Shown in pieces: positions 9,106 to 10,290 of a stretch of DNA of 64,000 nucleotides. Position numbers and translations under genes: made by a program. Source of the stretch: Mytilus edulis (taxonomy: Eukaryota); assembly GCF_963676685.1 (NCBI RefSeq), contig NC_092346.1:70804001-70868000 (forward strand), given 5' to 3'. Numbering within the stretch: the stretch's first letter is position 1; each line of letters starts with the position of its first letter. The notes under the pieces are model-generated. The model had not been told where the DNA came from. It did not search any database and worked only from the letters and a program-made list of their open reading frames with translations.

Positions 9106-9362
9106 AATAGTTATCAAAGGTACCAGGATTATAGTTTAATACGCCAGACGCGCGTTTCGTCTATAAAAGCCTCATCAGTGACGCTCAGATCAAAATAGTT
9201 ATAAAGCCAAATAAGTACAAAGTTGTAGAGCATGGAGTATCCGAAATTTCAAAAGGTTGTGCCACATACGGCTAAGGTAATCTATTCCTGGGATAAGAAA
9301 ACCCTTAGTTTTTCGAAAGATTTTATGTTTTATCAACAGGAAATTTATTAAAATGACCATAT
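9106..9362 (-). mobile_element. Retrozyme-like repeat, family 1, with hammerhead at 9141-9184
   Basis: Reverse complement GCGTCA-CTGATGA-GGCT tttat AGAC-GAA-ACGCGCGT-C-TGGCGT. Confidence 0.85.
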
Positions 9363-9364
9363 AA

Positions 9365-10180
9365 ATCATCCCGTTTGTCATAAGATTTTAGTGTAAAGTC
9401 GTCCACCTATCAATATTGAGGAAAAAATCATGAAGGTATGAAGCAGTCCTTCTTGTATCAGTAGTATCCTTAATTTGAAGTTCACTGGTATATATGAGAT
9501 GCAAGTAATGACTGAAATATTGGTTATTCAGTGATTTGCAAGTGCTTTTTATTTGTCTTTTAGAAGGTTCTAAATGAATTTTGCTACAAACGAGTACAAA
9601 AACAAGTCGACCAGAAAGGGTGCACAATTAAAAGCCAGTGAAATACCGACTGTTTGTTAAAATACTAATCCTCAAAACTCAACAAATTTATTGATGTTTA
9701 AAAATTAAAGCATTTTGATAATATAATTTTCATTGTATTTTCTGATAGAATCAGTGTGGTTCTTCACAAAATAAGAATTATTATAACCCAAAACCAAAAA
9801 TTATACCTACAATTGGCATTTTTATTGAAAAAGCTCTGTTTAATGAGATGGTGAAGTCGATCTTTGAATTGATCATATGGAATAGAAGTGTAGAGCGTAG
9901 ACATATTAAAAAGGTCTTAATGTTGTTACAAAATTGCAGAGATAGTGATCTGAGATTTTGCAGTAGATCTTTGGAATTTTTGAGAATTCACATCTTATTG
10001 ACAGCACTGGTTGAATATATCTCATCACAATATTCTTATAGTACATATTTTACTGTAGAAAAAATAGAAATCAACACGTTAGAAAGGTGTTTAGTCGAAC
10101 ATCTTGATGATAAAGCTATCAATCATTCTTTATACGGAGTTTTATGAAGTTTTTGTAACCAGTATAATGACGGTAGATTG
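9365..10180 (-). pseudogene. Decayed Penelope-like (Naiad-like) reverse transcriptase fragment
   Basis: Minus strand, with frameshifts: LPSLYWLQKLHKTPYK...CSTKHLS...EYCDEIYSTSAVNKM*ILKNSKDLL...STLYTSIPY...QTVGI...SLNNQYFSHYLHLIYTSELQIKDTTDT...YDKRDD. Confidence 0.85.
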
Positions 10181-10182
10181 TA

Positions 10183-10290
10183 AAAAAACTTATCAAAGAT
10201 ACCAGGCTATTGATTTAGGAAACTGAAACTACAGATGGCTCATCAGTGACACTGAAGAGAATTGAAAGTATAATGTTTCAAAAGACGTTG
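10183..10290 (-). mobile_element. Degenerate family 1 retrozyme-like remnant
   Basis: AAACTTATCAAAGATACCAGG terminus and CTCATCAGTGAC core half; remainder deleted or diverged. Confidence 0.6.

What the first reader, a model, noticed from the sequence alone, without database searches (positions are those of the whole stretch)
9106..10290. PLE reverse transcriptase fragment sandwiched between two co-oriented hammerhead repeats
Seen on the minus strand: hammerhead relic plus 3' end (10290-10183), immediately the RT fragment (10180-9365), immediately the retrozyme body plus hammerhead (9362-9106). Both junctions fall within a few bases and all three parts share orientation. This mimics the pseudo-LTR-RT-pseudo-LTR layout of PLEs. 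Inference: either template jumping by one RT between retrozyme and PLE RNA, or independent insertions at an AT-rich hotspot.
Basis: partly seen in the sequence, partly recalled or inferred. Interest (0 to 1): 0.7.

Follow-up and report, generated by a model that had tools for sequence, protein, structure and literature searches.

The report
Retrozyme nested inside dead Naiad retrotransposon
This is an old, broken Naiad jumping gene whose enzyme gene is interrupted by a younger copy of a very common self-cutting RNA repeat and which starts right against a decayed second copy, so the apparent 'sandwich' is most likely ordinary stacked insertions rather than a new kind of element.

Summary
The three pieces are real and co-oriented, but the sandwich reading fails. 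The RT does not end at 9365: it resumes at 9105, runs to about 8824, and the element continues through its own 3' UTR to a Naiad 3' end at about 7330. The 9362-9106 repeat is a 5'-truncated retrozyme (257 of 355 nt) inserted in the ORF; 19 of 19 related Naiads are uninterrupted there. It is younger (91% to relatives) than the Naiad (84-86%). The two repeats are 72% alike, against 98% for a true pLTR pair. The upstream relic is weak (E 2e-4), lacks part of the hammerhead core, and joins the Naiad 5' truncation with no gap. That joint alone could be a template jump (about 0.25). However, 10 of 12 direct retrozyme-Naiad joints elsewhere are nested insertions, 0 of 81 other truncations have such a joint within 10 nt, and both orientations occur. 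Earlier scan notes on other DNA already linked this retrozyme to Naiad through a shared hairpin, which I confirmed on one copy.

The parts
10183..10254 (-). Decayed 3' end of a retrozyme, closest to the 365-nt family F2 (57/70 nt, 81%). An 11-15-nt deletion removes the GAAA core and stem III, so the hammerhead is predicted dead. Marginal similarity may extend to about 10290.
   Evidence: nhmmer E 2e-4 (F1) and 2.3e-3 (F2); identity
9363..10180 (-). 5'-truncated Naiad PLE, RT fingers/palm part, with many stops and frameshifts and a 40-nt deletion that removes the YIDD catalytic motif
   Evidence: a DNA profile of the upstream ORF finds no remnant above 10180 at this locus
9106..9362 (-). 5'-truncated monomer (last 257 of 355 nt) of retrozyme family F1, nested in the RT ORF between codons DKRDD and FNFP; the family's fixed 3' end is intact; ATTT occurs at both joints
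   Evidence: 19 of 19 related Naiads uninterrupted at this site
9141..9184 (-). Type I hammerhead in the insert; core letters present, one mismatch in stem II
   Evidence: Rfam RF00163 24.9 bits, E 0.11; compared with family unit
8824..9105 (-). Continuation of the same RT ORF (C-terminal part) to the position of the family's stop codon
   Evidence: alignments to L013 and L002; tblastn 9063-8863 E 7e-18; 81-85% to relatives
7330..8823 (-). 3' UTR and true 3' end of the same Naiad copy, interrupted by further unrelated stretches (about 8680-8140 and 7925-7750)
   Evidence: collinear with L002 down to 7327, and partly with L064 and L077
6750..7287 (-). Neighbouring 5'-truncated copy of a second Naiad family, co-oriented, about 43 nt behind the first element's 3' end

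Best explanation
The stretch is a dead, 5'-truncated Naiad retrotransposon (10180 to about 7330) whose reverse transcriptase gene is interrupted by a younger hammerhead retrozyme copy (9362-9106), and the older retrozyme relic at its 5' edge is likely a second, independent insertion. Shown: the nesting, the element's real 3' end, and the lower divergence of the insert. Inferred order: (1) the Naiad integrated 5'-truncated; (2) at a similar early time an F2-type retrozyme was primed at a T/A-rich site at or near the Naiad 5' edge, or further inside with loss of the upstream part; (3) later an F1 retrozyme was primed at the ATTT in the RT ORF and copied for 257 nt. Both retrozymes were probably copied in trans by a Naiad RT/endonuclease, since the retrozyme carries the same hairpin as the Naiad start. 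The locus has no predicted function: the ORF lacks YIDD and only one hammerhead is near-intact, so no RT-bearing circle could be cut out.
For: RT homology resumes across the insert with a 7-nt BLAST overlap in related copies and 19 of 19 are uninterrupted there. The 3' UTR is collinear with L002 to 7327. Identity to best relatives: insert 91%, RT parts 86% and 85%, relic 81%; window Naiad end branch 0.17. Flanking repeats 72% alike vs 98% for the L083 pLTR pair. Of 21 genome-wide places with a retrozyme 3' end within 300 nt upstream of a motif of the second Naiad family, 10 are nested insertions, 2 are direct joints without upstream Naiad, 9 are separated by 43-190 nt. Of 81 distinct Naiad 5' truncations, 0 have a co-oriented retrozyme 3' end within 10 nt and 1 within 20 nt (L011, old retrozyme beside a young Naiad), while 2 carry the Naiad's own 3' end. 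Antisense nested insertions exist (L076, L161, L050, L221). In 1.2 Mb of evenly spaced DNA: 67 terminal retrozyme 3' ends, 64 Naiad ORF fragments, none nested or joined, giving about a 15% chance that a 2.85-kb Naiad holds one.
Against: The upstream joint is exact: the relic runs to the family's canonical end, and four further letters fit both the retrozyme's tandem continuation and the Naiad. No Naiad remnant is found upstream of the relic, and the two ages are compatible. L217 shows the same pattern (79% retrozyme, 77% Naiad, zero gap, nothing upstream). One of 81 within 20 nt is above the 0.045 expected (P 0.044). No orthologous empty allele of the 9362-9106 insert was seen; the empty site comes from paralogs only.
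Confidence: 0.72

Rival explanations
1. Mixed history: the 9362-9106 repeat is a nested insertion, but the upstream joint was made in one event, when the Naiad RT stalled at 10180 and jumped to the 3' end of a retrozyme RNA, giving a heterologous partial tandem in place of the usual pLTR.
For: Zero-gap joint with 4-nt microhomology, no upstream Naiad remnant, similar ages. Naiads in this genome form partial tandems at mid-ORF truncations (L065, L124). Retrozyme and Naiad start share a hairpin (0 of 1000 shuffles). L217 looks the same. The joint is bridged by contigs of two other runs, X1 and X5, so it is not an assembly error.
Against: 0 of 81 other truncations show such a joint within 10 nt (95% upper bound 3.6%). 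10 of 12 direct joints are nested, and two of them sit only 29-31 nt from the Naiad 5' edge (L218, L226), so some edge insertions will look like jumps. L210 has the same shape with a 96% retrozyme on a 78-81% Naiad, so the shape arises without a jump. All four one-sided arrangements occur (sense or antisense, upstream or downstream part missing). About 10 chance neighbours within 5 nt are expected genome-wide (extrapolation).
Confidence: 0.23
2. One reading: 10290-9106 is one unit, an RT fragment framed by two retrozyme repeats acting as pseudo-LTRs, made by two template jumps in one event.
For: Co-orientation and tight joints. Younger Naiads of this family do carry a retrozyme-like segment in their 3' UTR/pLTR.
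Against: The RT continues past 9106 at the exact empty-site position and on to its own 3' end. The repeats differ in family, age and sequence (72%). No framing duplication. No second copy of the upstream joint among 39 other scored places or by exact pattern (1 match, the window). The window's own 3' UTR has no hammerhead segment.
Confidence: 0.02
3. The relic pre-existed and the Naiad integrated at its T-rich 3' end, or the two were brought together by a later deletion.
For: L011 shows a young Naiad 19-20 nt behind the 3' end of a 61-63% retrozyme. A PLE endonuclease prefers ATT sites in vitro (PMC11167929, passages). The relic is slightly more diverged (81%) than the Naiad (84-86%).
Against: The joint keeps the retrozyme's full end plus its natural continuation, as in the nested insertions, and no duplicated or left-over relic letters follow the Naiad 3' end.
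Confidence: 0.03

Closest known systems
Naiad clade of Penelope-like elements (Craig et al. 2021, PMC8557442; passages seen)
   Same: Intact relatives have an N-terminal GIY-YIG, a CxC linker, a DKA motif and a C-terminal RT; copies are heavily 5'-truncated and form partial tandems (L083, L065, L124).
   Different: The window copy is a dead fragment that starts inside the RT. The paper says Naiads lack canonical hammerheads; here younger lineages carry a degenerate retrozyme-derived hammerhead segment in the 3' UTR (not in the window copy).
Mytilus non-LTR retrozymes (Cervera and de la Pena 2020, PMC7229834; passages seen)
   Same: Type I hammerhead in 350-390-bp tandem repeats, two related families; here 355 and 365 nt.
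   Different: The window holds a partial monomer and a relic, not an array. The published sequences (figures, supplements) were not compared, so identity with the published family rests on size, family number and hammerhead type.
Retrozymes as non-autonomous PLE derivatives (Li, Clavereau, Pollet 2026, 10.64898/2026.07.22.740005; parts 1-3 of 5 read)
   Same: Retrozyme-pLTR sequence similarity and proposed mobilisation by PLE enzymes.
   Different: That work centres on vertebrates and Xenopus pLTRs; the parts read describe no nested or chimeric retrozyme-RT joints. Here the long shared segment looks captured by one Naiad lineage, while the short shared hairpin is at the Naiad start.

Membership tests
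Naiad PLE | N-terminal GIY-YIG endonuclease before a C-terminal RT | tested here: met
   In intact relative L082: GIY-YIG at aa 170-258, RVT_1 at 787-888 (weak, E 0.012). The window copy lacks this part by truncation; it matches aa 660-1026 at 58-77%.
Naiad PLE | CxC linker and DKA motif | tested here: met
   Visible in the ORFs of relatives L013, L016, L020; upstream of the window copy's truncation
Naiad PLE | 5' truncation and partial-tandem pLTR made of the element's own 3' end | tested here: met
   L083 pLTR pair 98%; L065 and L124. The window copy is truncated and has no pLTR of its own.
   RT resumes at 9105 and the element ends near 7330
   72% vs 98% in a real pair; both end in the retrozyme 3' end, not the Naiad one
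Metazoan non-LTR retrozyme | Type I hammerhead in a 350-390-bp tandem unit, no ORF | tested here: met
   Family arrays with 355- and 365-nt period; hammerhead at 9184-9141
Metazoan non-LTR retrozyme | Two consecutive complete hammerheads (criterion for an active copy in Li et al.) | tested here: not met
   One near-intact hammerhead in a partial monomer; the relic lacks GAAA and stem III
Metazoan non-LTR retrozyme | Self-cleavage and circular RNA accumulation | not testable with these tools
   No RNA data or assay for this copy

The most novel reading that the evidence does not exclude
Naiad reverse transcriptase switches between Naiad RNA and retrozyme RNA at one integration site, leaving heterologous composites: co-oriented retrozyme-3' to Naiad-5' joints (this locus, L217) and head-to-head joints (L203 zero gap, L190 10 nt, L143 38 nt). 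These would be direct genomic footprints naming Naiad as the enzyme that spreads mussel retrozymes.
Probability: 0.25. Interest if true: 0.55.

Novelty: new member of a known kind. Interest (0 to 1): 0.22.

Why it matters
As found, little: a nested insertion of one abundant repeat in another, which shows how stacked insertions mimic a pLTR-RT-pLTR unit. If the upstream joint and the head-to-head joints proved to be single-event composites, they would be direct evidence for the proposed but unshown PLE-retrozyme partnership and for how pseudo-LTRs arise by template switching. The side finding that one Naiad lineage carries a retrozyme segment with a disabled hammerhead bears on whether pLTR-retrozyme similarity reflects origin or capture.

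Tried and rejected
Single TSD around 9106-10290, or around relic plus whole Naiad: none. Second copy of the upstream joint: none among 39 other scored of 72 candidates, 1 exact pattern match, the window itself. Upstream Naiad remnant beyond the relic: none by BLAST, tblastn or DNA profile. Relic as the Naiad's own pLTR: rejected, it matches the retrozyme end and aligns poorly to Naiad UTRs. Empty allele: contigs of four runs (X1, X5, X19, X14) run from the RT into the insert and stop 17-23 nt inside it, short of the 31 letters needed to count as bridging; no joint skipping 9106-9362 is among the 15 of 435 joints shown; this neither shows nor excludes an empty allele. A second read-laying gave no result. 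The genome-wide antisense counterpart was not obtained, so orientation rests on small samples. Head-to-head enrichment was followed up: of six candidates, L161 and L221 proved to be antisense nested insertions and L080 is age-discordant with a 46-nt spacer; three remain, a post-hoc count. In one search two loci (L212, L214) were printed on the wrong strand and read accordingly. In one search L064 was dropped for short overlap and the row OUT_L213 holds L211 sequence. Literature: retrozyme plus Naiad gave 2 works; searches listed no paper on retrozyme-Naiad joints; supplements were not opened.

Full report
Setting. The window lies on contig C3 of a 1.37-Gb genome with 14 large contigs. The repeats match the description of mussel retrozymes (PMC7229834, passages) and read sets are labelled in part as mollusc, so a mytilid mussel is inferred.

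Observation. On the minus strand an RT homolog starts at 10180 and is full of stops and frameshifts; a 40-nt deletion near 9535 removes YIDD. A hammerhead lies at 9184-9141 inside a repeat with several copies in the window. Profiles built from 31 and 32 natural copies of two retrozyme families (F1 355 nt, F2 365 nt) detect the upstream relic at 10254-10189 with E 2e-4; it has lost GAAA and stem III.

The RT does not end at 9365. A search of the own genome with 10400-8700 returned Naiad copies that match 10173-9363 and 9111-8720 as adjacent blocks with about 7 nt overlap (40 of 7023 candidates scored). In 19 of 19 related loci the site reads through DKRDDFNFP without a break. The insert is the last 257 nt of the 355-nt F1 unit with the family's fixed 3' end, and ATTT stands at both joints, readable as a 4-nt duplication or as microhomology with the unit's end. 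Downstream, the window is collinear with the older copy L002 through the 3' UTR to the Naiad 3' end at about 7330. Intact relatives have GIY-YIG before RT, CxC and DKA, so the family is Naiad (definition from PMC8557442 passages).

The flanking repeats are not pLTRs. A real partial tandem of this family (L083) repeats the Naiad 3' end at 98% (796/812); the two window repeats are 72% alike (49/68) and end in the retrozyme 3' end. Best identities are 91% for the insert (31 copies), 86% and 85% for the RT parts (70 and 81 hits) and 81% for the relic against F2. No duplication frames the proposed unit.

The upstream joint. It is unique in the genome as far as tested and real: contigs of runs X1 (9839-10286) and X5 (9836-10237) bridge it. 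The relic reaches the canonical F2 end at 10183, and 10181-10178 fit both the retrozyme's tandem continuation and Naiad relatives; no Naiad remnant lies upstream. This fits a template jump, an insertion at the 5' edge, or an insertion with a one-sided deletion.

Tests of enrichment. (a) Of 107 Naiad loci, 86 show a 5' truncation, 81 distinct. None has a co-oriented retrozyme 3' end within 10 nt; one has it within 20 nt (L011, old retrozyme, young Naiad; expected 0.045, P 0.044); two carry the Naiad's own 3' end; two have an antisense retrozyme within 40 nt. (b) A genome-wide pattern found 21 places with a retrozyme 3' end up to 300 nt before a motif of a second Naiad family: 10 nested insertions, 2 direct joints without upstream Naiad (L210 age-discordant, L217 age-concordant), 9 with 43-190 nt between. 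The antisense counterpart is missing. (c) In 120 evenly spaced 10-kb stretches there are 67 terminal retrozyme 3' ends and 64 Naiad ORF fragments (2.55% of bases), none nested or joined, where 1.7 nested would be expected. (d) Among 88 retrozyme-centred loci, the four places with Naiad ORF within 100 nt (L033, L050, L190/191, L203) are all antisense. There is thus no co-orientation bias. Sense and antisense, upstream-missing and downstream-missing forms all occur (window, L217, L210, L011; L203, L190, L143, L080; L074, L008; L067, L033), as expected from insertion with occasional one-sided loss. With at least 20,136 exact 3' ends and about 76,000 by profile, about 15% of Naiads of this length should hold a retrozyme.

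Mechanism. Shown: nesting, element ends, relative divergence. Inferred: both retrozymes were inserted by target-primed reverse transcription in trans by a Naiad protein. Support: the Naiad start in L083 aligns with retrozyme nt 1-75 (0 of 1000 shuffles) and folds into the same hairpin (one copy tested, L082 is truncated before it); this lead came from earlier scan notes. A PLE enzyme cuts at ATT and starts inside its RNA in vitro (PMC11167929, passages), and PLE 5' joints can form by microhomology without TSD (PMC3846280, passages). Trans-mobilisation of retrozymes by PLEs is already proposed (PMC7229834; 10.64898/2026.07.22.740005 parts 1-3).

Side finding. 55 of 59 Naiad loci in which the 3' UTR could be judged (duplicates not removed) carry a 72-77% retrozyme segment, 5'-truncated and ending at the retrozyme's 3' end, whose hammerhead core is altered in all 55. 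In a 35-row tree all 21 sampled carriers fall in one branch (100/99) that excludes the window copy and L002, which lack it. This suggests one capture followed by inactivation; it was not tested further.

Verdict. Ordinary nested insertions in a dead Naiad; the sandwich is not a unit. A template jump at the upstream joint stays possible at about 0.25. Interest 0.22.

Noticed in passing
L003-L020, L123-L176 (e.g. L083 about 6527-6764); window 29587-29324: One Naiad lineage carries a retrozyme-derived segment (unit nt about 64-350, 72-77%) in its 3' UTR/pLTR, with the hammerhead core altered in all 55 loci; carriers form one branch, suggesting capture then inactivation.
   Followed up: partly
L083:2533-2600 and retrozyme unit nt 1-75: The Naiad start and the retrozyme share a hairpin lying just behind the fixed 3' end of insertions, as earlier scan notes reported.
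   Followed up: partly
L203:1697, L190:1490-1501, L143:2480-2519: Head-to-head joints of a 5'-truncated retrozyme array and a 5'-truncated Naiad, of similar divergence and with no Naiad on the far side; they resemble the inverted 5' copies known for PLEs but are heterologous.
   Followed up: partly
L208, L209, L220 and L211, L214: Independent retrozyme insertions hit the same position of the second Naiad family three times and a nearby one twice, where the target matches the retrozyme's end and continuation.
   Followed up: no
L008:2543-2694 (minus): A 42-nt Naiad 3' end is joined directly to a 5'-truncated retrozyme, right behind a broken RT; a possible retrozyme-to-Naiad template switch.
   Followed up: no
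window 7287-6750 (-), 3914-2534 (+), 665-890 (+): Fragments of two or three further Naiad families lie in the window; the one at 7287 follows the studied element co-oriented after about 43 nt.
   Followed up: partly
window 33769-33985 and 35875-36091: 217-nt inverted repeats, 94% complementary, 1.9 kb apart; probably a DNA-transposon or foldback element.
   Followed up: no
window 54369-54716, 41548-41995, 51154-51420: Long near-perfect palindromes (arms 126-171 nt), MITE-like; they explain the weak miRNA hits in Rfam.
   Followed up: no
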